From a virus: 64,000 nt of DNA. Shown here one piece after another: positions 4,566 to 20,347 of the stretch; position 1 is the first letter of the stretch, and each line of letters starts with the position of its first letter. The DNA is taken from IMG/VR virus record IMGVR_UViG_3300044691_000355, positions 32,001 to 96,000 of that record; one strand, written 5' to 3'. The notes under the pieces are model-generated. The model saw only the letters and a list, made by a program, of their open reading frames with translations, did no database searches and was not told where the DNA came from. Position numbers and translations under genes: made by a program.

Positions 4566-5660
4566 TTACAGGTTGGAGCGACGAGCGCACACCTCGGGGT
4601 ACACCATCTCGACGCCGCCGATGCGACCGAAGTAGGTCGTGATCTGGCGGATGTCGCGGTACTCAATCGGTGTGCGCTGGAGCGGCACCAACGGCAGACG
4701 CACGCGCGTCGGGTCCTTGATGTAGGCGAACATCGAATTGGTCGCGATGCCGAGCGGGTTGGTCGGCTGCGTCGCGGTGCCCAGGAGCCACTTGCACGGC
4801 AGAATCTGGAACGGCGTTGTGGTCTGACCGACGGCAACGTTATTTTCCAGCAAGTACGTCAGGATCGACTGGCTGCCCGCTGTTGAAATCAGCGTCGAGC
4901 GCAAAATCGAATAGGACACCGGATCAATCAGCAGCCGGTCTGGCATCGCTGCGTAACCGCTCGCGGCCCATGCGCTGTTCAAGATCGCATTGACATCGGC
5001 GAGAATCAGCGCGGCGGTCGCGGACGCCCAGCCGCCCGTCACGGCATTGCCCGTGTTGGTCAAAGCGGCGTGATTCAGAAGACCGTTCATCCTCATGATC
5101 ACATCGCCCGTGTAGGCCTCTTCGTCCAAGTCCATGTTGTACTTGAGCATCATGGCGTCGAACTTCTGCTGATCGATGGGGCGGCCCAACTGCTGCGCGG
5201 AAATCAGTTCCGGCAACGTCCAGGTCAACTGCACCATCCACAGCGGCAACGCAGAAATCTGCTTACCGATGTCCAGCGACACGCCGACAATCGCATTCGC
5301 CTCCTTGCTCGCCCAGGCCTTATTCGAGCCCGCGATTCCCTGCCCGGACGCGAATGAGCTGTTCGTAAAGCTCGATTCCTCATCCCCCATCGTCACGTCT
5401 TCGCGAAGATCGATATCGCGCGCCCACGTGTAGGCGACCAGCGGCATGTGCAGCCGGGGGTCCAAGCGCTCCAGCTCGCTGAGCAAAAACACGCCCGCTG
5501 AATCAATGGTGTTGCGGTCGTAGGTTTGGAATGCATCGCGCGTGCGCGCATGCACACGATGGGTCAGCCGCGTATCAACGCCATGAACGACGTTTAATCC
5601 GTGGCCGTTCGCGCGGGCATTCGCCAGCGCCGTTTTTACGGACTGATTGAGACTTAGCAT
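4566..5660 (-). CDS. Major capsid protein (DUF2184 family)
   Basis: SAGVFLLSELERLDPRLHMPL, TWARDIDLREDV, GRPIDQQK, GGVEMVYPE motifs. Confidence 0.9.
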   Translation of the reverse strand: MLSLNQSVKTALANARANGHGLNVVHGVDTRLTHRVHARTRDAFQTYDRNTIDSAGVFLLSELERLDPRLHMPLVAYTWARDIDLREDVTMGDEESSFTNSSFASGQGIAGSNKAWASKEANAIVGVSLDIGKQISALPLWMVQLTWTLPELISAQQLGRPIDQQKFDAMMLKYNMDLDEEAYTGDVIMRMNGLLNHAALTNTGNAVTGGWASATAALILADVNAILNSAWAASGYAAMPDRLLIDPVSYSILRSTLISTAGSQSILTYLLENNVAVGQTTTPFQILPCKWLLGTATQPTNPLGIATNSMFAYIKDPTRVRLPLVPLQRTPIEYRDIRQITTYFGRIGGVEMVYPEVCARRSNL

Positions 5661-6304: not shown

Positions 6305-7942
6305 TTAAACGCCGCCGCTGCGCGAGGCCCAGAATTTGCGATTGGTTTCATTCAAGGATGCGGTGGTGACCGCCTTGCCGAAATCCTTGACGGTGAGCTT
6401 GACGTTTGCGCCCGCCTTGTTATTGCGCTCGCGCATCAGCTCGGCGGCTCCAGTGAAGACGCCTGCAACGTTGTCGAGCGTCACTGCATCGATCTTCTCG
6501 CCAAGCAAGAAGGGCTCGATCACCGCTTTGCCGTCGTCGGTCGCATAGGCTGTCTGCACGGCTTTGAGCATCAGGGCTGGCAGCGCATCCTTGGCCTGCG
6601 CACTGTCGCCCGTCGGCACCGCGATACCGGGGCTCAAGATTTCCGCACGCGCGAAAATGTGCTTGGACACTTGCGCCGCATCGGAGGTGCCGAGCACGCC
6701 GACATTGCGGGTACGCGCGGCTTCAAGCGCGGCTGCGGAATCGGTGGCGGCCTTCGCGGCAACGGCGTCCTCGGCTGCCTTTTTCTTCATCGCACAGTCG
6801 GCCGCTTCCTGTTCTTCCTCGGCATCCTTCACCGCCTGGCGCTGCTCATCGACCCACGCGAGCGCGTCCTGGATGCGCTTATCCATGGCTGAGTCTGTCG
6901 TCCCGCCATCGTTGCCGCCCGTGTCATCATCGGCGAGTTCTTTATCGAGTGTTTCCGCGTCGCGCGCATTGAACGCCTGCATGACACGGATGAATTTATC
7001 GGCAAATTTCGATTTCATGATTGAACGGTCTCCTAACGGTTTATAAATGCGCGATTTCGCCGCGCTGCTGGGTCTGCTCGGTTTCGACTTGCGTTGCAGC
7101 GCTCGATAGGCCGCCATGTGCTCTTTGCTCTTCGCCGTGTGTACGGCGAAGGACTTCTGATTGCCTGCCGCATGCGCGGCGGTTGCGGCTTCGAGGTGCA
7201 GGCCAAGGGCATGCCAATGGGCTTCCTCATCGCCACTCGTTTGCGCCGCTGCACTCGCCGCATGCGCGGCGGCTGAGCGCAGGCTGGTGCCACCGCCGCC
7301 ACCACTCCAGCGCCCGGTCGCATCGCGCTTCTCGGTGGGGTTGAACTGATCCCACACGGAATCCTTGATGGCGCAGCGCGAGCCTGCGCGCCCGCGCCCG
7401 TCGAGTAGCGCCACGTGATTGCCGATGATGTTGTACTGCGTCGCGCGCCCCACGTCGGTCTGCTCATATTCCGCGTCATAGCCGCAGGAAAGTTCCGGGT
7501 GCTTGCGATTCACGAAGGCAATCGCCTCACCGTCGGTGATGATCAGATCGCCCACGAGCGTGTCATCTTCGATGCCGCTGCCACGGCGCACGTTGTGCAC
7601 GGTGCCCACGGAATGTTTCTTCCAACTGCCGGGGGTCACGAATTCGTTCGGATGCTCCAAGGTGACCGGCTTGCCCTCGAAGCTCGACATCGTCTTGTCG
7701 CTGAAAACCTCATCCGCGAGGCGCGTGACGATGATCTCGCCCGCGCCATTGGCATCCAAGGGCAGCTCGGATTTGTGGTAGCGCTGCTCGCCCGTGCGCG
7801 CAATCGCCACCCCCTCGCACACCATGTACCCTTCAGGCGTAAGCCTGCGGCTCTTGCCCACCGCGCCTGGCGCATAGAAAGCGGTTTTGTCGATGACCCC
7901 GACACGGTCGAACACATTGAAGCGCTCGCGCACTTTCTTCAT
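6305..7942 (-). CDS. Prohead protease/scaffold (DUF2213 family) with tagged His/Ala-rich insertion
   Basis: TPEGY, IARTG, SFEGKPVT, ELSCGYDAEY, GNHVALL, GRAGSRCAIKD motifs; ATGA overlap with upstream gene. Confidence 0.88.
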   Translation of the reverse strand: MKKVRERFNVFDRVGVIDKTAFYAPGAVGKSRRLTPEGYMVCEGVAIARTGEQRYHKSELPLDANGAGEIIVTRLADEVFSDKTMSSFEGKPVTLEHPNEFVTPGSWKKHSVGTVHNVRRGSGIEDDTLVGDLIITDGEAIAFVNRKHPELSCGYDAEYEQTDVGRATQYNIIGNHVALLDGRGRAGSRCAIKDSVWDQFNPTEKRDATGRWSGGGGGTSLRSAAAHAASAAAQTSGDEEAHWHALGLHLEAATAAHAAGNQKSFAVHTAKSKEHMAAYRALQRKSKPSRPSSAAKSRIYKPLGDRSIMKSKFADKFIRVMQAFNARDAETLDKELADDDTGGNDGGTTDSAMDKRIQDALAWVDEQRQAVKDAEEEQEAADCAMKKKAAEDAVAAKAATDSAAALEAARTRNVGVLGTSDAAQVSKHIFARAEILSPGIAVPTGDSAQAKDALPALMLKAVQTAYATDDGKAVIEPFLLGEKIDAVTLDNVAGVFTGAAELMRERNNKAGANVKLTVKDFGKAVTTASLNETNRKFWASRSGGV

Positions 7943-8268
7943 GTGTTCGCAATCGAGGGATAGGTGCGCACTGGCAGGATGCCCGACCAGTCCAAGATTT
8001 TTTCTGGGTTGCTCGTGGCGCACGACACGCCGATGGCGTAGTCGTTGTAATCCACGCCAGCCGATACCGGCAGCAGCACTTGTGTGCTGGTGGAGCCGAG
8101 CACGGCGGTGCCCAAGATCAAGCCAGCCCCGTTGGTGTCGGTGCCCCAGATATGATTGAGAACGACCGTCGGCGCGCCGGTCAGGGTTTCCCCAACCAGC
8201 AGCCCCAATGCAAAGTTGAACACCAGTTCAACCGCTTCCAGGGGTGCTTTTTCACTGAATCGCTGCAT
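7939..8268 (-). CDS. Putative fibre adaptor protein
   Basis: FSEKAPLE..FNF start and small beta-rich fold typical of fibre adaptors; follows repeat protein. Confidence 0.5.
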   Translation of the reverse strand: MQRFSEKAPLEAVELVFNFALGLLVGETLTGAPTVVLNHIWGTDTNGAGLILGTAVLGSTSTQVLLPVSAGVDYNDYAIGVSCATSNPEKILDWSGILPVRTYPSIANT

Positions 8269-8282
8269 GTCTTAATTCCTTT

Positions 8283-9860
8283 TCAAGGTGATCGCGTCCA
8301 CGTGACTTCACGCGCGGGCGCGCTCATCGCGGCTTCGGCGGGGGGCACGTAGGAGACGGTGAAATTTCGCGCACCGAGCTGTGCCTGCGCCGCCGCCTCA
8401 TACGAAGCGGTGAAATTTCGCGCAGGGATATCGATGACGAAGGGGCCTGGCCCTTGGCTGGTCGCGGTGGTCGATAAGATCGAATGCAGCGTGTCGGGCG
8501 CTTCATGCGCGCCCAAGGCCGCAGCCACGCTCAAGAGACTCTGCGCAATCAGCGCATCCGCCCCTTCCACCACAATCGCATTGGCGGCTTCGAGCAACTG
8601 CGCGAAACTCGTAATCGTATCCGGCGCTTCCGTGCGGGTAAGACTCGCGCCCACGGTGAGCGAGAGCGCGGCGGCGAGCGCATCAGGGCCTTCCGTTTTT
8701 GTCAGCAGCGCCGTGATCGGCACCGCACCTGAAACGGCGATGAGCGTATCTGCGCCTTCGAGAATCGCAGCGTTGATCACTTCGGGCAGCGTTGCCGCAG
8801 CACTGAGTGTGTCGCCGCCTTCGGTCTTCGCGAGGCTGATCGCTTCAGGCAGCGTGGCGGCGGCGCTGATCGTATCGGGCGCTTCGGTGATCGATGCATT
8901 GATCGGCGTGCCGCTCAGACTCGCCGCTGCGCTGATCGTATCGGCGGCCTCGGTCAAGGCCGCATTCAAACTTTCAGGCAGCGTGGCCGCCGCCGCAATC
9001 GAATCAGCACCTTCGGTCAGCGCGCAAGCAATCGCTTCGGGCAGCGTTGCGGCTGCGCTCGACGTGTCGGCCCCTTCGGTCACGCTTAAAGACGCAACCG
9101 ACACGGGCGCGCCTGCCGTTGCGCTTAAGGTATCTGCGCCCTCCGTCACCCCGGCGTTGAGAACCTCGGGCAACGTGACAGCGGATGCGAGCGTGTCCGC
9201 ACCTTCCGTATCGGTGAGCGCCATCGCTTCCGGCAGCGTGGCACTCGCTGCAATCGTGTCCGCACCTTCCGTTCTGCTCAGCGCTACCGCAACCGGCAGC
9301 GTGGCACTTGATGCAACAGTGTCAGCGCCCTCGGTGTCGGTGAGCGTGACGGCAGCGGGCAGCATCACCGCCGCACTCAAGGTGTCGCCGCCCTCGACTA
9401 TCGATGCGCTTACCACCTCGGGCAGCGTCGCGGTCGAGCTGCTGGTGTCTGCGCCTTCCGTCTTTGACAGGCTCACCGCAACCGGCAAGGTCGCGGCGGC
9501 ACTGATTGTGTCGGCACCCTCCGTGACGCCTGCGCTTGCGCCCGCTGGCGCTATTGCGGCTGCGGCAATCGTGTCCGCACCTTCGACAAGAGCGGCGGCA
9601 GCACCGGCTGGCGCGCTCGCGGCCGAACTGATCGAATCAGCACCTTCGGTGATGCTCGCGCTGATCGCTTCGGGGAGCGTCGCCCCCGCGCTTAAGGCAT
9701 CTGCGCCTTCAGTCTTCGCCAAGTTAACCGCAACCGGCAGCGTCGCAGCGGCGCTTGAAGTGTCCGCGCCTTCGGTGGCGGCAAGGGCCGCATTCGTGCC
9801 GCCCGATACGGCAGGCAAGTCCCAGTCGAACCACTTTTGAATGAGAAGATCGAGGCTCAC
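8283..9860 (-). CDS. Ala/Thr-rich protein with 21 copies of a ~21-aa repeat; putative fibre spine
   Basis: Repeat TEGADTxSAAATLPxAxxxxx counted 21 times; three ARNFT/AREVT repeats at C-terminus. Confidence 0.75.
   Translation of the reverse strand: MSLDLLIQKWFDWDLPAVSGGTNAALAATEGADTSSAAATLPVAVNLAKTEGADALSAGATLPEAISASITEGADSISSAASAPAGAAAALVEGADTIAAAAIAPAGASAGVTEGADTISAAATLPVAVSLSKTEGADTSSSTATLPEVVSASIVEGGDTLSAAVMLPAAVTLTDTEGADTVASSATLPVAVALSRTEGADTIAASATLPEAMALTDTEGADTLASAVTLPEVLNAGVTEGADTLSATAGAPVSVASLSVTEGADTSSAAATLPEAIACALTEGADSIAAAATLPESLNAALTEAADTISAAASLSGTPINASITEAPDTISAAATLPEAISLAKTEGGDTLSAAATLPEVINAAILEGADTLIAVSGAVPITALLTKTEGPDALAAALSLTVGASLTRTEAPDTITSFAQLLEAANAIVVEGADALIAQSLLSVAAALGAHEAPDTLHSILSTTATSQGPGPFVIDIPARNFTASYEAAAQAQLGARNFTVSYVPPAEAAMSAPAREVTWTRSP
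8490..9780 (-). repeat. Degenerate ~63-bp coding tandem repeat
   Basis: Recurrent gtgtccgcrccttcggt / ggcagcgt units at ~63-bp spacing. Confidence 0.85.
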
Positions 9861-9861
9861 G

Positions 9862-10572
9862 CTAGAACCACTCGGCTATGTTCAGCCCCATCGCTAATCC
9901 CCCTTGACGGCCGCGACGTTTCATCGCTCCAGGGGGTGGCTTGCCAGCGACTGCGGCGGACTTGAACGCAACCGTCGCAATGGTCCAAACATCAGATGAG
10001 GCCATCGTGGCCGTGGCGTTTGCGGTGCCCAGCGCTGAGGTCGTGGTCTGACTCATCGCGTAGAAGAAACCGGCGTGCTGGTCGAGGAGGACCGTGAACC
10101 CAGGTCCAGGGGTTATTGCCTCCCCGCTGCTCGGCTGGATGACGGAGAGGATGAGATCAGTGGCATTGGCCAGAGTCCCCATCGCCATCGATATGGCCGT
10201 GGTCGCGCCGACCGTGAGGGCGCTGGCAACAGCGCCAGGGGTGCCGTCCGTGTAGCCACTGGTCGGACAACCGGCCAGCTCATATGCAATTGCCTCACAC
10301 GCGATGCTCGGGTTGATGGTGAACGTGCCGGAGGAAGTCACCACGGGGGCGACAAAAATCCACGAACCATTGTTATTTGCTGTGTCGATGCAGCTAGCAA
10401 CATTCGCGTAGCTGTTTGGGGGCGACTGGTTGTCGGAACACGACTCAGACGGCTGGACGTTGGTCGCCAACACCACAATCAAGTTGCCGACCGTGGGGGC
10501 CGATGGGAACGAGATACCCCCGCCCCCTGCGATAAAACCTGTCTGTTGAACGATGCTCGGTGCGCCGCTCAC
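9862..10572 (-). CDS. Putative virion fibre / adhesion protein
   Basis: Beta-rich, FPSAPTVGNLIVV motif; within fibre cluster. Confidence 0.5.
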   Translation of the reverse strand: MSGAPSIVQQTGFIAGGGGISFPSAPTVGNLIVVLATNVQPSESCSDNQSPPNSYANVASCIDTANNNGSWIFVAPVVTSSGTFTINPSIACEAIAYELAGCPTSGYTDGTPGAVASALTVGATTAISMAMGTLANATDLILSVIQPSSGEAITPGPGFTVLLDQHAGFFYAMSQTTTSALGTANATATMASSDVWTIATVAFKSAAVAGKPPPGAMKRRGRQGGLAMGLNIAEWF

Positions 10573-11607
10573 CTAGATGCTCGCGTTAATGCATTCCGCC
10601 GCGACAATCGTGTTCGTGCCCGAGAAGGAGGTTCCGCCGTTGACGGAAACTCCCAAAATAGAACCTGCTGGCGTCGAGTTAAATCCGCTGGATACGGTTG
10701 TTATTAGTCTAATGCCTCCGACATTGACAGGAGTCGATGCGAGACCCGTTACCGCTAGAAAGCTAAGTAGCTTCAAGTTTCCAACCACTACGGCTGAGGT
10801 ACCCGAACCCACCGTGCGGAAATGTAATTCCAATTCAAATTTACCGGTGTCCGCAACAGCGGTGCCTGCGCCGAATGTAAAGGTCAGAATAGCTGTATCG
10901 GCAGTGGTTCCTGCTGTGCCATAACGCACAGTGACAACGAACGCCGCTGTGCCCGCAGCGGTCTTCACCATATCGAATATGAGTCGATACTTAGTCCCCA
11001 CCACAGGGCCGCCCGCACCCAACGCAATCGCCGATCCCGCCAGATATGTGTCGGCGGCAAAGCCCGCGCTGACCGTGGATACAGAACGATTCGACAGGGT
11101 CGCGAGCGCATACTTCACGCCCAATGCGGCCGATGCAGCGGCCATGAGCGAGGTGCCATCTGCGCCAACCGGAATGCGGTCAGGGCCGGTGTCAAAGCCG
11201 ATCAAGTCGCCCTTCGTCGTCAAGGGCAATCCCAGCGTTTCAACCAGGCCCGCAGCGCTGTACTTAGTCCACACGCCCAGCTCATCGAAGATTACTGACT
11301 CACCGGGCAGCAGCGTACCGTTCCACAGGCTTTCCGCCGTTGTGCCGTCGAAATGCTCTACCAGAACCGTGGTTGACACCGTCGCATGCGTGTTGTTGAT
11401 ATCGAGCAGCTTGACGTTGCGCTGCACGCTTGAGCCAGGAGAGCCGACAACCGTCGTCGTGGTGGCAGTCGAGATACTCGCGGTGTTCGTGCGCCCCGGC
11501 GTAATGACCCCGGAGGCATTGTCCATATGCGATTCGTGAACATCGAGCGCCGCCGCCGATCCGGTCGTGACACGGACGATGTCGGAGACCGAGGTAAGCA
11601 GCAGCAT
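10573..11607 (-). CDS. Putative virion fibre protein
   Basis: MLLLTSVSDIVRVTT start, LTTKGDL and RIPVGADG fibre-type motifs. Confidence 0.55.
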   Translation of the reverse strand: MLLLTSVSDIVRVTTGSAAALDVHESHMDNASGVITPGRTNTASISTATTTTVVGSPGSSVQRNVKLLDINNTHATVSTTVLVEHFDGTTAESLWNGTLLPGESVIFDELGVWTKYSAAGLVETLGLPLTTKGDLIGFDTGPDRIPVGADGTSLMAAASAALGVKYALATLSNRSVSTVSAGFAADTYLAGSAIALGAGGPVVGTKYRLIFDMVKTAAGTAAFVVTVRYGTAGTTADTAILTFTFGAGTAVADTGKFELELHFRTVGSGTSAVVVGNLKLLSFLAVTGLASTPVNVGGIRLITTVSSGFNSTPAGSILGVSVNGGTSFSGTNTIVAAECINASI

Positions 11608-11615
11608 GAGAGCTT

Positions 11616-11804
11616 TTACGCCTTCGGCGCGAGGGCTGCGGCAGCGTCGTCGTGGGCTTTCTTCTCAACCGCGATCTGCGCGTCGAGTACGATCTTCTCC
11701 ACCGCACTGAGCGCGGCGAGCAGAACGACCGAGTCCTCATCCGTGTGAGTCGCGATAGAGGCGATCCCTTCCGCCACGATCTGAATCTTTTTTGCGATAT
11801 CCAT
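11616..11804 (-). CDS. Small hypothetical protein
   Basis: RBS AAGGAAG; in operon. Confidence 0.55.
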   Translation of the reverse strand: MDIAKKIQIVAEGIASIATHTDEDSVVLLAALSAVEKIVLDAQIAVEKKAHDDAAAALAPKA

Positions 11805-11816
11805 GGGCTAACTTCC

Positions 11817-12221
11817 TTACGCGTTCGCGGAGGTGAGGGTGAAGGTGTTGACCGTCCAGGCCTGCGCGCTCGCAGCGACCGGATTGTCCATGGTCATATC
11901 CCCACCGCCGCCCGTGGCGGTCACGCTGCCTTGAACGTGGCACGTCGTTCCGGTGCTGTCATAAATACGGAAGTATCCGACCGTTCCCGCAGCGCTAAAT
12001 GTGCCGGTCCATGTGCCCGCTTTCGCCTTCGCGCCAGCAGAGGCATTCGCCAGCCAGTCAGAGGGCAACGCCTGCGAGGCGAGGTTGGTGCCGCTCGCAG
12101 CGGTCGCGCACGTGGCTGGCTCCGCGCCCGTGTAGAACTTGAGCAACGGCGCAGTGCTGATCGTGGTCTCGATTTGATCGAGCTTGGCGTTGAGCACTGT
12201 TTGGCTGTATTGCAGGGCCAT
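11817..12221 (-). CDS. Small beta-sandwich structural protein; putative repeating fibre subunit
   Basis: LKFYTGAEP, GTVGYFRI, QGSVTATGGGGDM motifs; RBS GGAGA. Confidence 0.65.
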   Translation of the reverse strand: MALQYSQTVLNAKLDQIETTISTAPLLKFYTGAEPATCATAASGTNLASQALPSDWLANASAGAKAKAGTWTGTFSAAGTVGYFRIYDSTGTTCHVQGSVTATGGGGDMTMDNPVAASAQAWTVNTFTLTSANA

Positions 12222-12245
12222 GAATACGTTCTCCGGTGAAATTCT

Positions 12246-13079
12246 TTAAACGATGATTTCTGCCCAGCAGCGGCATTCCCAAATGCACCCAGGATGAAAG
12301 CGCATCAGTCGGCCGCTCTCTTCGATCTCGGGCGGGTTGGCCCACTCGCATACGCGGCCGTCCATCGCGCGATGATTCGGGCGAGTCACATGATCTTTGG
12401 TCGCGCGCCAGCGGTAGGTCGGAAGCCCGGCGATGCTCGCGCGTGCTTGGGTCAAATTCGATGCGGTGCGCGACACCTCGGTGCGTGCGATCAGCCGCGC
12501 GTGCGCTGCGCTCACCTCGCCTGAGCGCTCGATCTCGCGCACGATCCTTCCTAATCGCTCGCCCTCGATCAGGCCGGTCAAGGTGAGGCGTTGCACACGC
12601 TGCGCAGCTTCGATGGGCAAGGAGGCAATCAATTCGGTTTGCTCGGCCATGAGTTTGGCCATCACTGCGCCGACTTGCGTGTCACGGATTTCTTGCGCGA
12701 CGCCAGCGGACATGCTCTTGGCCAGCGCGCGCCAGGTTTCGATATCGCGCGCGTTGACTTCCTCGATCATCCTGGCCGATGCTTTTTTGGCCCATGGCCG
12801 AAGCACCTGGCTGTAGGCGTGCAGCACCGAGACCAGCTCTTCGTTACCCGCCCTTTGGGCGGCGGGGAACGCATTGATCAGATGCCCGATGTGTTCACCC
12901 ACCTTGCCGAGCGAACGCTCGAATTCTTCCGTCGCGCGGCCGATCCGTGGCTTGCCTCGCGCTCGCTTCGCGCGCGCATCCATGGCGCGGTGACGCTGCG
13001 CCCGCGAGCCAAGGGAGTACGTTAGGTGGCCGCACGTGAGCAGCGGCACGAATTTCGGTTTCGGTTTCGCCGCGATCAC
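12246..13079 (-). CDS. Head morphogenesis protein (MuF / SPP1 gp7 family), short form
   Basis: ARLIARTEVSR, YRWRAT, RPNH, HPGCIWECRCWAE motifs; GTG start overlapping upstream TGA. Confidence 0.88.
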   Translation of the reverse strand: MIAAKPKPKFVPLLTCGHLTYSLGSRAQRHRAMDARAKRARGKPRIGRATEEFERSLGKVGEHIGHLINAFPAAQRAGNEELVSVLHAYSQVLRPWAKKASARMIEEVNARDIETWRALAKSMSAGVAQEIRDTQVGAVMAKLMAEQTELIASLPIEAAQRVQRLTLTGLIEGERLGRIVREIERSGEVSAAHARLIARTEVSRTASNLTQARASIAGLPTYRWRATKDHVTRPNHRAMDGRVCEWANPPEIEESGRLMRFHPGCIWECRCWAEIIV

Positions 13080-13258
13080 GGCGTTGTCGGCGGCGTCACC
13101 ACGGCATTGATCAGTGCATCGGCGTACCCGACGCACACTCGCGCAAGGTCTGCGGGATCATTGCGTGCGCCGCGCACGATGGCAGCGGTCAGGAAGACCC
13201 CCGCGAGCGCGAGGCGCAAGACTTGATCGCGATCTTCAAAATCGATGGGCTCACTCAT
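13076..13258 (-). CDS. Small hypothetical protein
   Basis: Start/stop overlaps with both neighbours. Confidence 0.5.
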   Translation of the reverse strand: MSEPIDFEDRDQVLRLALAGVFLTAAIVRGARNDPADLARVCVGYADALINAVVTPPTTP

Positions 13259-13389
13259 TCCGTCTCATCCTCGTCTTCGTCGATGGGCTCATCATCAAAC
13301 GGATACTCCATGCCCTCGGGCAGATGCGCTTCGACCGGCTGATAGTCGTTCAAGCGCTTGATGAAATCCTCGGAGACTTTCTCGGTCAT
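13255..13389 (-). CDS. 44-aa acidic protein following the ART gene
   Basis: Not in ORF track; MTEKVSEDFIKRLNDYQPVEAHLPEGMEYPFDDEPIDEDEDETE; abuts ART stop and overlaps next start. Confidence 0.6.
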   Translation of the reverse strand: MTEKVSEDFIKRLNDYQPVEAHLPEGMEYPFDDEPIDEDEDETE

Positions 13390-15764
13390 AACAGCGCTCC
13401 TTGAGCGGGGGCCTTCACGCGCGGCTTGCGTAGCTTCGGCGGTTGCACCGATGAACTGACCGCCGTGGCATGCACCACGATTCGCGCGAGTTCGCCCTCG
13501 CCTTTCGTGACCTTGGTGATTTTGAAGACCGTGCCCCGTGGCAGCAGCGCTTCGGCCTCGCCGTCGGCGAATGGCACGTCAGTGCCGTTATGCTGATTGG
13601 CCAATTTGCCGAAGGTGGGGATGGATAGGAACTTGAATCCCTTCGGGATGGTGATATGCATCAGCCCGTCTTTACTGAACACGTGCGCCACGCTCTTGGC
13701 GAACGAGGTGGAGCAATACGCGTGATCCATCATCGTGTCACCGACGCCGATGGATTCAACAAGGATGCGGGGAAGGCCGCGCGCGACCAGCAGCTTGCGC
13801 GGCGAGCCCTTCACGGCCTGCATGGCTGTATCGATGCCACGGATGTACGTCTGCATGTAGCTCGACACTGCGTCGAGATTGCCTTGGCTACGACGCAAAT
13901 CATCGTTGATCGAAGAACCTCCGGTGTACTTGACGACCCCGTCGATGATCTCGGGCGTAGGATCTGGCGGCGGCATCTTGAATGCGCGCTCGGCGAGGCG
14001 TGAGGCCTCTGTGCCGCTGCTGCCGCGCATTTTTATCAACATTTCAGGCAACGTCTTCGGATCAACGGGCTCAGGCGGCGCGTTGTTCGCTGCGGATGAC
14101 GCCGCGTAAGCCTGCGCTTCGGCCGTCGAGGCCTTCGTGTATTCCGCTTGCCACGTCGCTTTCTCAGCCCCAGTCATGCTGGTGGAGGCGTACACGGTCG
14201 ATGCCATGTTGGTGAAGGCATCGAGCTTTTCGACGGCGGCGAAGTGTGCGGCCTTGAGTTTGTCCAGCTCCGTTTGCGGCTTCGCCGACATCTTTTGCGC
14301 GAGCTTCTGCTTCTCCAGCGCCGCATTCAGCGCAGCCTCTGCTGCGTTTTCGTTGAACTGCGCTTCACTCACCAGCGCTTTCAGATGCGCGAGCTGCTCG
14401 GGGATGGCAGTCCCTGACGTGAACGCTTGAACGAGCCGCATGACAGCCGCTTCGTTCTCGGCGCGCGCCTCCAGATGCGCCGCCTGCAACTCCTGCAACG
14501 GCGTGAGAGGCGCGGGCGCATTCATCTGATTGACGTAGGTTTGCATCACTGAGCCGAAATGCGCGAGCGTCGCGGGCCCATCGGCCTGCGCGGCGTTCAT
14601 GATCTGAAGGAATTTCTTCGGTGAAGATTTGCCGTACAGGTACAGCTCGTGCACGCCGTATTGCAGATTGCCGACCCACAGCTTGGTCGCCTCGGTCACC
14701 TCGAAATTTTCCTGCACGTGCTTGAGCGAGCCCGCTTCGGCGGAATACGTGAAATCGAGTTTCTGCGCCGCCTGGGTGTCGAGTTGCTCCAACTCCAACA
14801 CCTTATCGGTCTCGGCATCTGCCTTGTACGCGGCTTGAAGCGCCTCTTGAATACGCTTCTTCTCCAGCACCGCTGCCTGATGCAGCGCCGCTTTCTCTTT
14901 CGCATACGCCATCGCGGTGCCTGTCACCGTCGGCGGGAAGAGCTGATTGAAACTGCCTTTGGTCCACTTGCCGGTCGCGTCGCGCTTCTGATCGGGGTCG
15001 AAATGATTCTTCTCATCATCGCGAGTCACACCGATCAATGCGGCGCGGCGCGCAAAGAACGTGCGCGCCAGCGTCGCGGAATTCTTCAAGCCGGAGGCGA
15101 CGAATGCGCCCTCAATGGCATTGCTATCAAGGCCGCGCACGCGCTCAAGCGCCGTATCAAAGGCCTTCGGGTCCAAGCGGCGCAACTGATTGAACACGGC
15201 ACCGGAGGGTAAATGCTCGCGCATCAGGCTCGACTTCTCGCTCACATCGGCGTCGTAGTCCTTATGCTGCCCCTGCGCGCGAAATTCAAACGCGCCGCCC
15301 AGATCGAGCTGCACCAAGTGACCTTGCGCGTCTTGCGCGATGTTCGAGTAATCAATTCCCAGCACGTCCCAGTTTTTGGTGAGCACGGCCGCGTAATACA
15401 TGGTCGCCAAGTCCACGCGCCGCTCAGCGTCGAGGAGCTGCACCGCGCCGGGCCACTTCACGGGCTTCGCCTCAATCCACGGGGAGACCAAGGCCTCCTT
15501 GCCGTGCACGGATTCGACATGCGGCATCGTGGTGCGCACACCCAACTGTCCGACCAGCGCGCTGGCGAGCGCCTCGCTGCGGCCCTGATCGGGGTTTGCG
15601 TAGAATTTGATGTAGTGCTTCTGACCCGCACTCGTGAACACGCCGCCGGGGTTTGAACCTAACTGCGCGCCGCTCTTCGTCCAGCGGCCTTGCGTGTCGC
15701 GCTTCTCAGCAGGATCAAAGCCGTCGTATGCCCTCGCGACGCGCGCATCCCACTGAGCGCTCAC
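13386..15764 (-). CDS. Multidomain protein: tag + HipA/PI3K-like kinase + tag + coiled coil + VIP2/Alt-like ADP-ribosyltransferase
   Basis: Kinase: GSNPGG, YIK, SEALAS, NWDVLG..N, LDLGG; ART: YT..S..IN..LR, VARGL, CSTSF, EAEALLPRG (R-S-ExE). Confidence 0.8.
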   Translation of the reverse strand: MSAQWDARVARAYDGFDPAEKRDTQGRWTKSGAQLGSNPGGVFTSAGQKHYIKFYANPDQGRSEALASALVGQLGVRTTMPHVESVHGKEALVSPWIEAKPVKWPGAVQLLDAERRVDLATMYYAAVLTKNWDVLGIDYSNIAQDAQGHLVQLDLGGAFEFRAQGQHKDYDADVSEKSSLMREHLPSGAVFNQLRRLDPKAFDTALERVRGLDSNAIEGAFVASGLKNSATLARTFFARRAALIGVTRDDEKNHFDPDQKRDATGKWTKGSFNQLFPPTVTGTAMAYAKEKAALHQAAVLEKKRIQEALQAAYKADAETDKVLELEQLDTQAAQKLDFTYSAEAGSLKHVQENFEVTEATKLWVGNLQYGVHELYLYGKSSPKKFLQIMNAAQADGPATLAHFGSVMQTYVNQMNAPAPLTPLQELQAAHLEARAENEAAVMRLVQAFTSGTAIPEQLAHLKALVSEAQFNENAAEAALNAALEKQKLAQKMSAKPQTELDKLKAAHFAAVEKLDAFTNMASTVYASTSMTGAEKATWQAEYTKASTAEAQAYAASSAANNAPPEPVDPKTLPEMLIKMRGSSGTEASRLAERAFKMPPPDPTPEIIDGVVKYTGGSSINDDLRRSQGNLDAVSSYMQTYIRGIDTAMQAVKGSPRKLLVARGLPRILVESIGVGDTMMDHAYCSTSFAKSVAHVFSKDGLMHITIPKGFKFLSIPTFGKLANQHNGTDVPFADGEAEALLPRGTVFKITKVTKGEGELARIVVHATAVSSSVQPPKLRKPRVKAPAQGALL

Positions 15765-18628
15765 GGCCCAAACATTTCCGCATACACGGAATCGAAATCC
15801 TCATCGCCGTCATCATCGTCATCGCCGGGGTCAACGCTTTGCCAATCTGGCGTCTCGCCCACATAGCCATGCGTCTCTAAGAAATCGGTCATCGCTTGCT
15901 CACTCGTCACGGCTGCATCGGCGGCAAACAGGCGGCCGATCCAGTCCTTGACCTTGGATTTTTTCACTGGGGCTGTTGCACTCCAGGCTTTCCACACCAT
16001 CGGATCGATGTAGGACTTCAAGGCCTGCGCGGGCTTGTTGCCGAGCTTATCGCTGACCTTTTCAGCGATGGCGGCCACAGAGGCCTTGTGCTCTTTCGCA
16101 TCCATCGGCACCGGCATTTTCTTGACCTGCGCGCGCGCCATGTCGGTGGCGACCCATGTGCGCATGTCCTTCAAATCGAATTCTGAAGCCCCAATGCCGT
16201 GGAAGTAATCGCGCACGTGGGTTTCGCTCACCTGGAAAATCTGCTTATTCTCGCCCGTCGCACGCTGGCGTAGGAAGGTCGCGACCTTCGCATCCTTGAC
16301 GATGTGATGCTGCGTAACGCCGCTCTTGCCGGGGAAATCGAACGTGGTCGAATCGCCTGAGACCTTGACGTGCTGGCCTTCCAACTGCGTCGCCCCATGG
16401 GCTTTGACATCCGCGCCCGTGTCCTTTTCGGAGCCGGGACGAAAGCCAGTCTGCGAGACCAAGTACACGACTGCGGCGGCATCCTGTACCGCGCGCGGCA
16501 GCTTCGGATCGTTCATGTCGGCGGCGGCCTTGGCAACCACGCGATCCCGTACCTTATTGAAGGCGACGAGGCGCGAGAATTTCTCCACGTCCTGCTCGCC
16601 GCGATGGCCCGGCAGCTCGCGTGACTGTGAGCGGCCCTTGACATCGCGCCCCGTCACTTGCTTGCCTTCGGTCGGATCGGGATTCAAGCGAATGTCGGTC
16701 CACGCGGGCGGTATTTTCAGCGCCTTCAATCGCGCGTGCTCTTCGGGCGTGCCGCCATGCCACTTCTCATTTGCGCCGTACACGGTGTGCGCTGGCACCA
16801 TCTCGCCCTTGACGAGCTGCGCGGGGATGAGCGTGCCGCCGGAGCGCGTGAACACCTTGCTCGATGTGCTCCAGCGATTCGCAATTGGATTCTTGGACAC
16901 GTAGGACTTTTCAGGCACCGCTGCCTTGCCCTGATTGCCTATCGTCCATTTGCCTTCGGGGTCGCGCTTCTCCTGCGGATTGAACCCGTGGTGCGGCTGA
17001 CCGCCTGACGTGACGTGCTTCAACTTATCGAAGTTCGGGATATTCTCGAAGCGGTCAAAGAAATCCGCGTCGCGGCCTTTCTTGGTCTTCGGCGGCGGCT
17101 TCTTCGCGACCTTGGAGGCCTTGCTCTTCGCGCCCGGCGCTTTGGCAGCGCCTGACTCTGAGCCACGGCCGGGACGCGCGGGCGTCTTGCCCTTTGCGCC
17201 GGGTTTCGCAGCGCCCGGCGGTGCACCGGGGGCGGGCTTCGGCAGCACCAGGCCCAGCGCTTCGGGCGTGGGATCGGGCAGCGACTCGGCGTTTTTGATG
17301 TCCTCATCCGCGATATTCGAGAACGCGCCGGTAATGAGCGACATCGCCTTGAGTTCCTTCAGGCCCGTCGCTTTGTTGATGAGCTGCGCGGAGAAGGCCT
17401 CGGTAACGGCCGCCACCGTGGTGTTGGTGACCTGGGATTTCTCCGTGTCGGACAACTGCCACAGGGATTTGAACTCTAAGGTGAATTCTTTCGGCGGCTC
17501 GGTGCCGAATTTGCTGATGTACGCCAGGCGATACACCGTCTCGATGCCATCACCCAGCCACGTGACTTGCTGCTGCTTCACTGAATCGTGATAGCCGCGA
17601 ATGTCGGCATCCCCGGTCGAGAACCCGGCAGGCGATTGACCGAAGAGGCGCACCAGCGGTATTTCAACGGCCCCCGCCAACTGCTCGCCGAACTGCGACA
17701 GGATCACATCGAGACCGGCAAATGCGTACTGGTGCGTCTCAAAAGTGTCGCGCGTATCCAAGAGGGTGAGGCCCTCATTGGTTTGCATCGCGCGAATCAT
17801 GTTGATGTTGGCGAGCAAGCCTTTCATCGCGGCCGATGTGCCGCCGATGATTTCGCGCAGGCCCTCCACCGACAGCGTGCGCAAATGCGCCTTGTAGACC
17901 ATCTGCGAGATGCCAGCGGTGGCCGAGTCATACGCGATCAGCCGATCCCACATCCGCTCGATCACTGACTGGCCCCACAGGTTCTCACCGATGCGCTGCC
18001 AGTACGGCAGCTCCACGCCCTCGATGCGGATCACGCGCGAGTAGTGGATTTTCATGCGCGGCATGCCGCCCGTGTCGGTGATCGTGTCGTAGAAGCGCGG
18101 TTTGCCGAAGTACGGCCCCATGTCATCGACCAAGTCGGTCAAGGAGGGCTGCAACACCCACCGATCCAGCGGCATCAAACCTTTGAATTGCCCCTGGCGA
18201 ATGCGATCCAATTTCAATGGCGTCGCGGGGTTTTGCCCATCGATCATCATGAAGGCGACAGCGCCGCCATAGAGGCGCGCCCACTTAATCGTGTCGCGCA
18301 GTTGCTTCCACAATTGCAGGCGCGCGATTTCCTTATTGAAGTCCGCGATCTTTGACGGCTTATCGCTCGTGGTGATTTCCATGCCCTCGCGGGTCATGTC
18401 CTGCGCGTAGACATCGACCACGCGACCGGCGATCCAAGAGCCCCGGTACACCATCTCCATCTGCATGCGGTTGCGCGAGATGGGATTAAACCCATACGCG
18501 CCGCCATCGCCCTGATTGCCCGTGCCGCGCCCCACGTGCGCAAGAAAATTCTGAAAAGTATCGTGAGTTTGGGCGGCCTCCGCGTCTGCGAACTTCTTGA
18601 CCAGTCGCGGACTGCGCCGATTGCTCAT
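15761..18628 (-). CDS. Portal protein (DUF1073 family) fused to tag and DNA topoisomerase IB
   Basis: Portal: YRGSW, WARLYGGA, IHYSRVIR, IPLVRLFGQSPAGF; TopIB: KIPPAW, GRDVKGR, GFRPGS, FPGKSG, KDMRT, LGN, SYIDP. Confidence 0.88.
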   Translation of the reverse strand: MSNRRSPRLVKKFADAEAAQTHDTFQNFLAHVGRGTGNQGDGGAYGFNPISRNRMQMEMVYRGSWIAGRVVDVYAQDMTREGMEITTSDKPSKIADFNKEIARLQLWKQLRDTIKWARLYGGAVAFMMIDGQNPATPLKLDRIRQGQFKGLMPLDRWVLQPSLTDLVDDMGPYFGKPRFYDTITDTGGMPRMKIHYSRVIRIEGVELPYWQRIGENLWGQSVIERMWDRLIAYDSATAGISQMVYKAHLRTLSVEGLREIIGGTSAAMKGLLANINMIRAMQTNEGLTLLDTRDTFETHQYAFAGLDVILSQFGEQLAGAVEIPLVRLFGQSPAGFSTGDADIRGYHDSVKQQQVTWLGDGIETVYRLAYISKFGTEPPKEFTLEFKSLWQLSDTEKSQVTNTTVAAVTEAFSAQLINKATGLKELKAMSLITGAFSNIADEDIKNAESLPDPTPEALGLVLPKPAPGAPPGAAKPGAKGKTPARPGRGSESGAAKAPGAKSKASKVAKKPPPKTKKGRDADFFDRFENIPNFDKLKHVTSGGQPHHGFNPQEKRDPEGKWTIGNQGKAAVPEKSYVSKNPIANRWSTSSKVFTRSGGTLIPAQLVKGEMVPAHTVYGANEKWHGGTPEEHARLKALKIPPAWTDIRLNPDPTEGKQVTGRDVKGRSQSRELPGHRGEQDVEKFSRLVAFNKVRDRVVAKAAADMNDPKLPRAVQDAAAVVYLVSQTGFRPGSEKDTGADVKAHGATQLEGQHVKVSGDSTTFDFPGKSGVTQHHIVKDAKVATFLRQRATGENKQIFQVSETHVRDYFHGIGASEFDLKDMRTWVATDMARAQVKKMPVPMDAKEHKASVAAIAEKVSDKLGNKPAQALKSYIDPMVWKAWSATAPVKKSKVKDWIGRLFAADAAVTSEQAMTDFLETHGYVGETPDWQSVDPGDDDDDGDEDFDSVYAEMFGP

Positions 18629-18908: not shown

Positions 18909-19004
18909 CTACTTGATGATGTCGCCAGCCAGGCGCTTGCAGCGCATACAGATCGCTTTCAAGGGGCTGCGCTTATGGCCGAAGAAAAAGCAAAGAATGT
19001 TCAT
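18909..19004 (-). CDS. 31-aa Cys/His peptide
   Basis: MNILCFFFGHKRSPLKAICMRCKRLAGDIIK; ATGA overlap with terminase stop. Confidence 0.5.
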   Translation of the reverse strand: MNILCFFFGHKRSPLKAICMRCKRLAGDIIK

Positions 19005-20347
19005 TCGCCCAACTTCTCCCACTGCGCACCGACGCCGCGCCTTTGGATGTAGCCATCGAGCCCGTAGCGAACCGCGTCCCATCCATGGTTGTGTGCATCG
19101 ACGATGATGGGCAACACATCGCCCGTGATCCGGTCCACCTTGTAAGCGTACAGACGCGCCTCTTCCTGCATGTGCTTGCAGCGCTCGTGAATATGGATGC
19201 GGACGAAGCCTTTTAAATGCGCAACGCCGTCCTCTAACGACCCCGGCCATTTATCGGCGGCCGAAATGTTGAAGGACTTGCGCGCCATGTAGGAAATCGT
19301 CTCAGGGCGCGCGCAGTCGGCCCTGATCGGCCAGGCCCTTGAGCCGGGCACGGAGTCAAACAATTGCGGGGTCTCATCGATCTCCACGCGGTAGCCGAAG
19401 GCCTCGTGACTGATCCACAACTCCTGACTGTGATCAGGATTCTCAGTGACCCAGAAACGAATGAGCGCGGTAGGATCATTTGCAAAACCCCAGTCTGCGC
19501 CGTAAAAAATGCGGGTGTCTTCATGGGGATTGCCAAAGGATTCTACGAGGACCCGACGGCGGAACACCGCCGCATTGGAATTCTTTTGAAGCTTGCCTTC
19601 CCAGACGTGATCGTAATCGGCCTGTAACTGGGAGCGCTCATCATCATCGGTAGCCTCGGCGATGCGCCGCCAGTCATTCTCGCGCTCGGCCTTCAGCTCA
19701 TCGGGGAACCATGGATTGTCGTTCCAGTTCACCTCGACGCTGCGCATGTCCGGGCGCGTCGCGAGCACGAAGCGCTCGTACGTCGGGTCCGTCTCATCGC
19801 GCGGGTTGAACACCACCCAGATTTCGGATGAGCCCAACTTGGTGCGAATGGTGGGAATCAAATATTTCCAGGACGCATCGGAGACGCGCTCCGCTTCCTC
19901 GACCAGGCAGATATCAATCGCTTCGAGCGACTTGATCTTGAGCGGGTCCGTCTTGATCCCCGCGAAAATAAACTCGGTGCCGTTGACCCCAAAGATGGCC
20001 TGCGCCTGAATCTCGTAGAAGCGCGTGAGGCCCATCTGTTCGATGCGATCCGTGATCAGTTTGTAGATCGAATCGCGAATCGAGGTCTGGTACTCGCGCG
20101 CGCAGAGGATGCGCAGCCGGTGCTGCGTGCCCAACACGGCGCATAGGCCTGCAAAGCTCCAGCTCTTCCCCGATCCGCGCCCCCCGTAGGCCACCTTGTA
20201 GCGGCTCGGAATAAACACGGGCATGCCGCCGGGGCCCGGCCTGAAAAAGAGGTCCCGCAGTTTTGGCGGGAGAAAATCGTTAGTGGGTGAGTTGCGGCTC
20301 GGGGTCCTCATCCGTTGCTTCGGGTTTCTCAGCGGCTCCGGGTTCAT
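19001..20347 (-). CDS. terL: Terminase large subunit (PBSX family)
   Basis: YGGRGSGKS Walker A, CAREYQTSI, VEEAE Walker B, GADWGFANDP, NHGWDAVRY. Confidence 0.95.
   Translation of the reverse strand: MNPEPLRNPKQRMRTPSRNSPTNDFLPPKLRDLFFRPGPGGMPVFIPSRYKVAYGGRGSGKSWSFAGLCAVLGTQHRLRILCAREYQTSIRDSIYKLITDRIEQMGLTRFYEIQAQAIFGVNGTEFIFAGIKTDPLKIKSLEAIDICLVEEAERVSDASWKYLIPTIRTKLGSSEIWVVFNPRDETDPTYERFVLATRPDMRSVEVNWNDNPWFPDELKAERENDWRRIAEATDDDERSQLQADYDHVWEGKLQKNSNAAVFRRRVLVESFGNPHEDTRIFYGADWGFANDPTALIRFWVTENPDHSQELWISHEAFGYRVEIDETPQLFDSVPGSRAWPIRADCARPETISYMARKSFNISAADKWPGSLEDGVAHLKGFVRIHIHERCKHMQEEARLYAYKVDRITGDVLPIIVDAHNHGWDAVRYGLDGYIQRRGVGAQWEKLGE

What the first reader, a model, noticed from the sequence alone, without database searches (positions are those of the whole stretch)
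7307..16984. Four copies of a 13-aa tag mark passenger domains across the head module: candidate capsid-loading system for injected effectors
Seen: FNPTEKRDATGRW (7307-7345, protease/scaffold), FDPDQKRDATGKW (14964-15002) and FDPAEKRDTQGRW (15681-15719, both in the kinase-ART protein), FNPQEKRDPEGKW (16946-16984, portal). Consensus F[DN]Px[EQ]KRDxxG[KR]W[TS]. Each copy lies N-terminal to a different non-structural module: a His/Ala helical insert, a coiled coil plus ART, a kinase, and topoisomerase IB. Codons differ between copies, so conservation is at peptide level. I saw no copy outside the head module. Established analogy: T4 loads Alt and internal proteins into the prohead and its protease processes them. 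Inference: the tag is a portable address that docks cargo on the inner capsid surface or DNA, letting the phage attach swappable effectors to core head genes for delivery at infection.
Basis: partly seen in the sequence, partly recalled or inferred. Interest (0 to 1): 0.92.

Follow-up and report, generated by a model that had tools for sequence, protein, structure and literature searches.

The report
Conserved header tag on phage cargo
A short, strongly conserved peptide marks the start of each add-on enzyme module in three head genes of this phage and in over a thousand other phage protein families; it is probably a handling label for proteins carried in the capsid, but its job is untested.

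Summary
All four copies of F[DN]Px[EQ]KRDxxG[KR]W exist at the stated coordinates on the minus strand. They are the only copies in the 132.8-kb virus genome, and 100 shuffles gave none. They precede a 3-helix insert in a gp21-fold protease-scaffold, a kinase-like domain, a coiled coil plus C3/Vip2-type ADP-ribosyltransferase, and topoisomerase IB on the portal.

The tag is not peculiar to this phage. A profile of it finds 1112 protein clusters, with up to 8 copies per protein spaced about 250 residues apart. It heads ARTs, kinases, Zeta toxins, NUDIX, TopoIB and other enzymes. These are often fused to MuF, a portal or a protease, or stand free with the tag at the true N-terminus.

The tag is common near N-termini (61 of 184) and absent near C-termini (0 of 184). 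Pfam, NCBIfam, the PDB and the papers I searched do not describe it.

The function is not settled. A capsid-cargo address is my best guess (0.45). Against it, tags sit on already anchored cargo, most homologous cargo lacks them, and no partner was found.

Earlier agents of this scan reported what appears to be the same tag on other DNA.

The parts
16946..16984 (-). Tag copy FNPQEKRDPEGKW, aa 549-561 of the portal-TopoIB protein. It lies after a Pro/Lys/Ala linker and before the TopoIB module.
15681..15719 (-). Tag copy FDPAEKRDTQGRW, aa 16-28 of the kinase-ART protein. It lies directly before the kinase-like domain.
14964..15002 (-). Tag copy FDPDQKRDATGKW, aa 255-267 of the kinase-ART protein. 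It lies between the kinase-like domain and the helical region plus ART. It is modelled as a low-confidence beta-hairpin.
7307..7345 (-). Tag copy FNPTEKRDATGRW, aa 227-239 of the protease-scaffold protein. It lies just after the protease domain and before the 3-helix insert. It is disordered in the model.
15761..18628 (-). Portal (Phage_portal_3, aa 56-409, nt 17402-18463) fused to topoisomerase IB (aa 628-868, nt 16025-16747); 955 aa.
   Evidence: Relatives' portals are 493-513 aa and have no extension.
13386..15764 (-). 792-aa cargo protein. It holds tag 1, a kinase-like domain (aa 30-245, nt 15030-15677), tag 2, long helices, and a C3/Vip2-type ADP-ribosyltransferase (aa 604-770, nt 13455-13955). 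Its GTG start overlaps the portal stop by 4 nt.
   Evidence: In relatives the same kinase-ART unit is fused to the portal.
6305..8023 (-). Prohead protease-scaffold fusion. It holds a gp21-fold DUF2213 domain (aa 55-210, nt 7394-7861), the tag, a 3-helix His/Ala insert (aa 244-311, nt 7091-7294) and a helical scaffold region. The likely start is the ATG at 7942 (545-aa form).
12246..13136 (-). Stand-alone MuF head protein without a tag (context).
4566..5660 (-). Major capsid protein, PF09950 (context).
19001..20347 (-). Large terminase (context).

Best explanation
The 13-14-residue peptide is one member (Lys variant) of a widespread short linear motif with consensus [FY][DN]Px[QE][PAK]RDxxG[RK]W[TS]xGG. 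This motif opens each accessory module of capsid-carried phage proteins. It occurs in this phage's portal-TopoIB, kinase-ART and protease-scaffold proteins, and in polyvalent, MuF-, portal- and protease-fused proteins of many other phages.

Shown here: the tag is real, under peptide-level selection, flanked by disorder or Gly-rich spacers, and placed N-terminal of a domain-sized unit. It is confined to head modules and moves together with its module as a cassette.

Inferred: the tag is a handling signal read by the head-assembly machinery. Most likely it is an address that brings or holds cargo in the procapsid. It may also serve as the mark for maturation by the gp21-fold protease, as the T4 capsid targeting sequence does for Alt and the internal proteins. 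Cargo would then leave with the DNA at infection.
For: Reality and spread:
- 4 copies in the genome against 0 in 100 shuffles.
- An IMG/VR pattern scan gave 33 matches in 32 loci, all in frame in ORFs of 157 aa or more. A position left free in the pattern is E or Q in 33 of 33, and T or S follows W in 31 of 33.
- The same pattern found only 7 matches in 596 Gb of prokaryote genomes. Three look real and four lie in short ORFs.
- A profile search found 1112 clusters at E<=1e-3.
- In 534 aligned instances R, G and W are at 100% and D is at 98%.

Header position:
- The first tag is within 30 aa of the N-terminus in 61 of 184 proteins.
- The last tag is within 30 aa of the C-terminus in 0 of 184.
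- Median spacing between tags is 248 aa.

Free-standing cargo:
- Four adjacent small genes in L004 begin M-x4-tag, followed by a G/S spacer and a glycine-zipper segment.
- Among kinase-like homologues, 3 of 10 with the domain near the N-terminus carry a tag, against 1 of 38 with an upstream anchor.

Head context:
- Carriers include MuF, three portal families, and S78 and DUF2213 proteases.
- Tags lie in or near the MuF gene in 13 of 13 MuF-bearing records.

Cassette behaviour:
- The closest portal relative (63% identity) has no tag, no TopoIB and no ART gene.
- Six of the nine closest protease-scaffold proteins have the tag plus a variable helical insert at one site, and three have neither.

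T4 parallel:
- The protease domain matches T4 gp21 (5JBL, Z 11.4, rmsd 2.5 A, 133 residues).
- The ART weakly matches the Alt-like PHROG family.
- The Pa193 homologue of the scaffold was found in the virion, bound under the five-fold vertex (passages of PMC11456595).
Against: - No packaging, binding or cleavage has been measured for any tag-bearing protein.
- An address is redundant where the cargo is already fused to a portal, MuF or scaffold, yet tags are common there. Several complete genomes have a single tag in exactly such a fusion (G007 MuF-tag-ART, G017 portal-tag-GNAT).
- The tag is dispensable for homologous cargo. 44 of 48 kinase-like homologues lack it, among them five of six portal fusions. 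79 of 80 IMG/VR and 17 of 17 metagenome DUF2213 loci lack it. Seven cultured phages with related proteins lack it.
- No receptor family is shared by tag-bearing records. Counts are MuF 13 of 22 (5 of 10 complete genomes), DUF2213 1 of 22, S78 1 of 22, S77 0 of 23, ClpP 0 of 23, JAB 2 of 23 and capsid PF09950 2 of 23.
- AlphaFold gives the tags low confidence (pLDDT about 36-64) and no contact with neighbouring domains.
Confidence: 0.45

Rival explanations
1. The tag is only a proteolytic processing mark. The prohead protease, or another peptidase, cuts at or next to the tag to separate modules from each other and from their portal, MuF or scaffold anchor. It has no role in loading.
For: - Tags lie at module boundaries and are spaced one domain apart.
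- They sit in disordered, Gly-rich, accessible sequence.
- In this phage one tag lies a few residues after a gp21-fold protease domain.
- Portal-fused TopoIB would have to be released in order to leave the capsid.
- Many carriers show a conserved K/A pair just upstream of the tag.
- Earlier notes of this scan read the motif this way (unchecked).
Against: - Tags start at residues 2-8 of free-standing proteins, where nothing needs removing.
- The commonest variant has Pro after the E/Q (60% of 534 instances), so a gp21-style cut after Glu would fall before Pro.
- T or S after W is not invariant.
- A 14-residue signature is conserved across records whose recognisable protease families differ or were not detected.
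- The four copies in this phage share no upstream cut-site pattern.
Confidence: 0.2
2. The tag acts at or after ejection. It could be a leader for threading each module through the portal and tail channel. It could equally be a site recognised in the host for refolding, localisation or cleavage.
For: - It is present whether or not the cargo is anchored.
- No conserved capsid partner was found.
- Small tagged proteins with glycine-zipper or membrane-like segments resemble membrane-acting ejection proteins.
- Hosts are diverse. They include a Micromonospora prophage and Gastranaerophilales-like MAGs, and this phage's relatives infect Bordetella, Burkholderia and Acinetobacter.
Against: - No conjugation-type domain appears among the 25 Pfam families shown (of 50 matched) in 62 carriers. 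A purely host-side signal should also serve conjugative polyvalent proteins.
- There is no direct evidence of any kind.
Confidence: 0.15
3. The tag is a self-associating sticker. Tags on the scaffold, portal or MuF bind tags on free cargo, so multivalent tagged proteins form an internal network without a dedicated receptor.
For: - Tags occur both on anchors (portal, protease-scaffold, MuF) and on free proteins within one genome.
- Many copies occur per protein, with Gly-rich spacers between them.
- No shared receptor family exists.
- Tagged and untagged scaffolds occur among close relatives.
Against: - Complete genomes exist with a single tag in a single protein.
- I could not fetch the contigs of the tagged versus untagged scaffold relatives, so the predicted co-occurrence with tagged cargo is untested.
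Confidence: 0.08
4. The tag is a passive joint. It would be a linker or a recombination scar that marks cassette boundaries and has no biochemical role.
For: - It lies at cassette boundaries.
- The tag plus insert is an indel polymorphism at a single site in close relatives.
- The system is present or absent as a whole among relatives.
Against: - R, G and W are invariant and D is at 98% in 534 instances.
- Conservation is at the peptide level, with nucleotide identity only 62-74% and random flanks.
- It occurs at the true N-termini of single-module proteins.
Confidence: 0.05

Closest known systems
Phage-type polyvalent proteins and MuF- or portal-fused virion effectors (Iyer, Burroughs, Anand, de Souza, Aravind 2017, PMC5512222; Jamet et al. 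2017, PMC5576092)
   Same: These are multi-enzyme polypeptides encoded beside portal, MuF and terminase genes. They carry ARTs, kinases, 2H, PBECR, GNAT and similar domains, sometimes fused to MuF or a portal, and are thought to be packaged and injected. This phage's portal-TopoIB and kinase-ART proteins fit that description.
   Different: The passages I could search in both papers do not mention a conserved peptide heading each module. Iyer et al. propose processing by zincin peptidases, and the tagged proteins here have none. Their supplementary alignments were not visible to me.
T4 capsid targeting sequence on internal proteins IPI-III and Alt, removed by prohead protease gp21
   Same: Both involve a short N-terminal peptide on head cargo that includes an ADP-ribosyltransferase. 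This phage has a gp21-fold protease. The concept is a portable address.
   Different: The T4 signal is a single N-terminal peptide that is cleaved at (L/I)xE (recalled; only a search listing was seen). The tag here also occurs internally, up to 8 times per protein, and on anchored cargo. It occurs across phages with different head-gene families. Neither targeting nor cleavage has been shown for it.
Cargo-loading peptides of encapsulins
   Same: Both are short conserved peptides that mark diverse enzymes for the interior of an HK97-fold shell (recalled knowledge).
   Different: Encapsulin peptides are mostly C-terminal and bind a defined pocket of a conserved shell protein. The tag here is N-terminal of its module, and tag-bearing phages do not share a capsid protein family. 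Binding to the capsid protein was not tested.
Pre-toxin junction motifs of polymorphic toxins (such as VENN in CdiA; recalled)
   Same: Both are short conserved motifs placed immediately before interchangeable C-terminal toxin or effector domains, and both mark cassette boundaries.
   Different: The polymorphic-toxin motifs occur once per secreted toxin and are linked to immunity genes. The tag here repeats before every module, occurs at true N-termini and sits in head modules.

Membership tests
Phage-type polyvalent / portal- or MuF-fused effector proteins | One polypeptide joins two or more unrelated enzymatic or effector domains | tested here: met
   The 792-aa protein joins a kinase-like domain and a C3/Vip2-type ART. 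The 955-aa protein joins a portal and TopoIB.
Phage-type polyvalent / portal- or MuF-fused effector proteins | Encoded in the head module beside portal, MuF and terminase genes | tested here: met
   The gene order is TerL, portal-TopoIB, kinase-ART, MuF, four unknown ORFs, protease-scaffold, small protein, capsid protein.
Phage-type polyvalent / portal- or MuF-fused effector proteins | Protein is present in the virion and delivered to the host | not testable with these tools
   The phage is uncultured and there are no proteomic data.
T4-type capsid targeting sequence | Short peptide at the N-terminus of head cargo | tested here: inconclusive
   One of the 4 copies here is N-terminal (aa 16-28) and three are internal. 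Elsewhere the first tag lies within 30 aa of the N-terminus in 61 of 184 proteins.
T4-type capsid targeting sequence | A gp21-type prohead protease is present to remove it | tested here: met
   The DUF2213 domain aligns to T4 gp21 (5JBL) with Z 11.4, rmsd 2.5 A over 133 residues. H124, S179 and H203 are invariant in 36 homologues. Whether these are the catalytic residues is my inference.
T4-type capsid targeting sequence | Necessary and sufficient for packaging; cleaved after use | not testable with these tools
   This needs packaging assays and N-terminal mapping.
Encapsulin-type cargo-loading peptide | Peptide binds the interior of the HK97-fold shell protein | not tested
The capsid family is not shared by tag-bearing records (2 of 23).
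Any curated family covering the tag itself | A Pfam or NCBIfam model, or a solved structure, that includes the motif | tested here: not met
   Pfam at E<=10 on six 43-aa tag segments gave only one weak GXWXG hit. NCBIfam found nothing over the tag. A PDB profile search gave only chance matches, to GFP and RPB10.

The most novel reading that the evidence does not exclude
The tag is a general, portable capsid-cargo address of tailed phages. Placed in front of any protein it suffices to load that protein into the procapsid, through a receptor-independent or structurally generic contact, and to have it delivered with the DNA. That would explain how phages swap injected effectors freely between portal, MuF, protease and free-standing genes.
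Probability: 0.3. Interest if true: 0.85.

Novelty: new variant of a known kind. Interest (0 to 1): 0.6.

Why it matters
Phages are believed to inject enzymes that disarm or reprogram the host. Outside T4 and a few other model phages, it is not known how such cargo is chosen for the capsid, held there and released.

This tag could be the handle for that question. It is 14 residues long and invariant at four positions. It heads unrelated enzymes in over a thousand protein clusters.

If it proves to be the loading or processing signal, it would give three things:
- A sequence rule for predicting injected effectors in metagenomes.
- A direct assay, using tag-reporter fusions and point mutants.
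- A tool for packaging chosen proteins into phage particles.

If it proves to be only a cut site or a spacer, the finding reduces to a useful annotation marker for module boundaries in polyvalent proteins.

Tried and rejected
Searches for a receptor or processing enzyme shared by tag-bearing virus records found none. I left out L009, L011, L015, L016, L018, L020, L025, L026, L028 and L032, which are duplicates by tag context, short contigs, or the same record as another locus. Results:
- Peptidase_S78: 1 of 22.
- DUF2213: 1 of 22.
- MuF: 13 of 22.
- Prok-JAB: 2 of 23. I followed this up because a JAB gene follows the tagged gene array in L004.
- Capsid protein PF09950: 2 of 23.
- Peptidase_S77: 0 of 23, but the control genomes did not ring either, so this result is uninformative.
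- ClpP: 0 of 23.

All-against-all BLAST of ORFs from the tag loci and this head module gave no shared extra gene apart from the MuF/ART cluster.

Self-cleavage at [DN]-P or at W-[TS] is rejected. Neither pair is invariant across variants. An isopeptide idea based on the Lys is rejected because Lys is Pro in 60% of instances.

A test of four copies of the tag peptide (complex prediction) returned 'no answer' with a score of 0.02. It is neither support nor evidence against.

I looked for a cultured, studied phage that carries the tag. tblastn of a 43-aa tag segment and of two multi-tag proteins against the phage collection gave nothing usable. Seven fetched records had no tag.

IMG/VR and metagenome scans did not return the 72-81% identical relatives.

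The kinase fold was not confirmed by structure comparison, because the ART domain filled the Foldseek list and the PDB sequence searches.

Literature: full-text searches for six 7-letter tag strings found 0 papers. 'DUF2213' found 7 papers, none relevant by title or abstract. Supplementary files of Iyer et al. 2017 could hold alignments that include the motif, and I could not see them.

Rows dropped:
- One search left out P0111, which has short-period repeats.
- One search left out P0098, P0111, P0129 and P0174 as NHL-repeat false positives. It also left out instances closer than 8 aa to the N-terminus or 22 aa to the C-terminus, and 3 of 537 that were out of register.
- One search scanned 62 of the 150 listed proteins, namely those of 1150 aa or less, taken in rank order up to the size limit.
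Full report
**Observation.** They lie inside three long ORFs:
- aa 227-239 of a 572-aa DUF2213 protein (6305-8023);
- aa 16-28 and 255-267 of a 792-aa protein (13386-15764);
- aa 549-561 of a 955-aa portal fusion (15761-18628).

A six-frame regex finds no other copy in the window. The back-translated DNA pattern gives 4 matches against 0 in 100 shuffles. The window belongs to a 132,772-bp virus record rated 96% complete, which holds these four matches and no more. A motif HMM over all six frames adds nothing. The only loose resemblance is an 'RDxxGRF' in a 1633-aa ORF beyond the window's end. The tag DNA is 62-74% identical between copies, the flanks are at random level, and 2-4 of the 8-9 shared residues per pair use different codons. 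Selection therefore acts on the peptide.

**The carriers in this phage.** Pfam and PHROGs give the following:
- terminase (19001-20347);
- portal of the Phage_portal_3 type plus topoisomerase IB in one ORF;
- an ADP-ribosyltransferase at the C-terminus of the next ORF;
- MuF (12246-13136);
- DUF2213, annotated as 'head maturation protease';
- capsid protein PF09950 (4566-5660).

An AlphaFold model of the DUF2213 protein, built on 36 homologues, has four parts. There is a confident N-terminal domain (aa 55-209), a low-confidence tag, a confident 3-helix bundle (aa 244-311) and a helical scaffold region. The N-terminal domain aligns to T4 prohead protease gp21 (5JBL) with Z 11.4, rmsd 2.5 A over 133 residues. 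It aligns to herpesvirus proteases at Z 6-6.7. By sequence the family is related to Pa193 gp24. That protein is a putative scaffold found in the virion, with a helix-turn-helix bound under the five-fold vertex (passages of PMC11456595). The label 'protease/scaffold' is therefore justified.

The model of the 792-aa protein, built on 45 sequences, shows a confident domain at aa 30-245, long helices, and a C3/Vip2-type ART at aa 604-770. I call the first domain kinase-like because a Gly-rich loop, K53, E64, D133, N141 and D154 are invariant in the alignment. Tagged relatives also carry DUF7178 and PI3/PI4-kinase matches. No structural match confirms the kinase fold. All three tags in these models have low pLDDT (about 36-64) and touch no neighbouring domain. 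Tag 2 is drawn as a small hairpin, with RDxxG as the turn.

**The tag elsewhere.** The strict DNA pattern found 33 matches in 32 IMG/VR loci. All are in frame in ORFs of 157 aa or more. They are also conserved at positions the pattern left free: E or Q in 33 of 33, and T or S after W in 31 of 33. In 596 Gb of prokaryote genomes the same pattern found 7 matches. Three look real (a Micromonospora costi prophage and two Gastranaerophilales-like MAGs) and four lie in short ORFs, which is about the chance expectation.

In the carriers the tag lies between an anchor or a preceding module and an enzyme. Examples are MuF-tag-ART, portal-tag-GNAT, tag-DUF7178, tag-PBECR3, tag-Zeta toxin and tag-2H.

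A local HMM showed that this phage's form is the rarer Lys variant of a broader motif. Large proteins carry 3-5 copies, one per domain boundary. A profile of 26 unique 43-aa segments gave two results:
- 45 proteins in the word-indexed search, with DUF7178 in 16.
- 1112 cluster representatives at E<=1e-3 and 187 at E<=1e-10 in the exhaustive search.

Of 185 stored carriers, 169 have 2-8 copies. In 534 aligned instances the consensus is [FY][DN]Px[QE][PAK]RDxxG[RK]W[TS]xGG. R, G and W are at 100% and D is at 98%.

A Pfam census covered 62 of the top 150 proteins:

| Family | Proteins |
|---|---|
| MuF | 14 |
| ADPrib_exo_Tox | 10 |
| Zeta toxin | 4 |
| ART | 4 |
| PARP | 3 |
| ART-PolyVal | 3 |
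| Tpt1 | 3 |
| ParB_N | 3 |
| GNAT | 3 |
| TopoIB | 2 |
| NUDIX | 2 |
| Acb1 | 1 |

None of the 25 families shown (of 50 matched) is a conjugation family. Three NHL-repeat proteins in the census are false positives.

**Where the tag sits.** The first tag is within 30 aa of the N-terminus in 61 of 184 proteins and within 60 aa in 101. The last tag is within 30 aa of the C-terminus in none and within 60 aa in 2. The median spacing is 248 aa. The tag therefore belongs to the module that follows it.

In L004, four adjacent small genes each begin Met, four residues, then the tag. A Gly/Ser spacer and a glycine-zipper-like segment follow. The tag can thus stand at the true N-terminus of a single-module protein. 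That rules out a role as a mere linker.

**Cassette behaviour.**
- The closest relative by portal (63% identity; terminase 67%, MuF 45%) has a plain 493-aa portal followed directly by MuF. It has no tag, no TopoIB and no ART gene.
- Cultured relatives (Bordetella IFTN9, Burkholderia Magia, Acinetobacter BUCTT20) likewise lack the tag and the insert.
- Among the nine closest protease-scaffold proteins, six carry a tag, sometimes degenerate, plus a variable His-rich helical insert at the same site. Three carry neither.
- Homologues of the kinase-like cargo are often portal-kinase-ART fusions. The closest one has a short tag variant directly before the kinase. The free-standing gene here therefore looks like a fission product of a portal fusion. 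Its start overlaps the portal stop by 4 nt.

**What argues against a loading address.**
- Tags are frequent on cargo that is already anchored. Complete genomes exist with one tag in one anchored protein.
- 44 of 48 kinase-like homologues have no tag. There is a mild excess of tags among the forms that start near the domain: 3 of 10 against 1 of 38.
- 79 of 80 IMG/VR and 17 of 17 metagenome DUF2213 loci have no tag.
- No protease, MuF, capsid or JAB family is shared by tag-bearing records.
- No extra gene is shared between their loci and this head module.

A receptor, if there is one, must therefore be structurally generic, or the tag itself, or DNA, or a host component.

**Reading.**
- Shown: a real, widespread header motif under peptide-level selection, restricted to head modules, that opens accessory modules of capsid-associated proteins.
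- Inferred: it is a handling signal for capsid cargo, most likely an address or retention signal that may also mark processing. The T4 capsid targeting sequence is the nearest precedent (T4 details recalled; only a search listing was seen).
- Rivals I keep open: a pure cut site, an ejection or host-side role, a self-associating sticker, and a passive joint.

**Comparison with what is known.** The proteins are members of the phage-type polyvalent and MuF- or portal-fused effector class (passages of PMC5512222). A search of PMC5576092 for six terms found none. The tag itself is not covered by Pfam, NCBIfam or any solved structure. Six tag strings occur in none of the searchable papers. I could not see supplementary alignments.

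Earlier agents of this scan reported what appears to be the same header tag in other genomes, also as undescribed. Those notes are unchecked and I did not rely on them. They prompted one check, for a cut-site pattern upstream of the tag. Such a pattern exists in many carriers (K or A at positions -2 and -1) but not in this phage's four copies.

**Verdict.** This is a new variant of a known kind, and its function remains to be shown.

Noticed in passing
window 8283-9860 (-): A 525-aa ORF between MuF and the protease-scaffold is built of about 20 tandem copies of a ~20-residue unit (TEGADTxSAAATLPEAx). It has no Pfam family and matches only PHROG 38872, which has unknown function.
   Followed up: partly
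window 9862-10572, 10573-11607, 11817-12221 (-): Three Thr/Ser/Ala/Gly-rich ORFs with no family match are also inserted in the head module. Magia-type relatives have nothing at this position. They may be head decorations or fibres.
   Followed up: no
window 15761-15764: The kinase-ART gene starts at a GTG that overlaps the portal-TopoIB stop by 4 nt. In relatives the same kinase-ART unit is the C-terminal extension of the portal (P0305, P0307-P0309, P0312, P0313). This looks like a gene fission caused by insertion of the tag-TopoIB cassette.
   Followed up: partly
window 7394-7861 (-): DUF2213 is listed in Pfam as uncharacterised. Its model has the T4 gp21 / herpesvirus assemblin protease fold (Z 11.4), and H124, S179 and H203 are invariant in 36 homologues.
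   Followed up: yes
L004 546-2067 (-) and 87-542 (-): This is a tandem array of four small genes, each starting with the tag and continuing into a glycine-zipper or membrane-like segment. A Prok-JAB metallopeptidase gene follows. JAB genes occur in only 2 of 23 tag-bearing records.
   Followed up: partly
genome 93025-97926 (-); the motif lies beyond the window's end: A 1633-aa ORF carries a loose 'RAGRDASGRF' at about aa 121. A weak tblastn hit of a tag segment also fell in Propionibacterium phage tape measure genes. Whether tape measure proteins carry a related motif was not examined.
   Followed up: no
window 12246-13136 (-): The MuF ORF has a long, basic N-terminal extension of about 50-85 residues before the region that matches other MuF proteins. 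Its true start is uncertain.
   Followed up: no
P0011 and two of the 62 proteins scanned: Topoisomerase IB recurs as tagged cargo in other phage polyvalent proteins. In P0011 it occurs together with ART-PolyVal. The portal-TopoIB fusion here is therefore not a one-off.
   Followed up: partly
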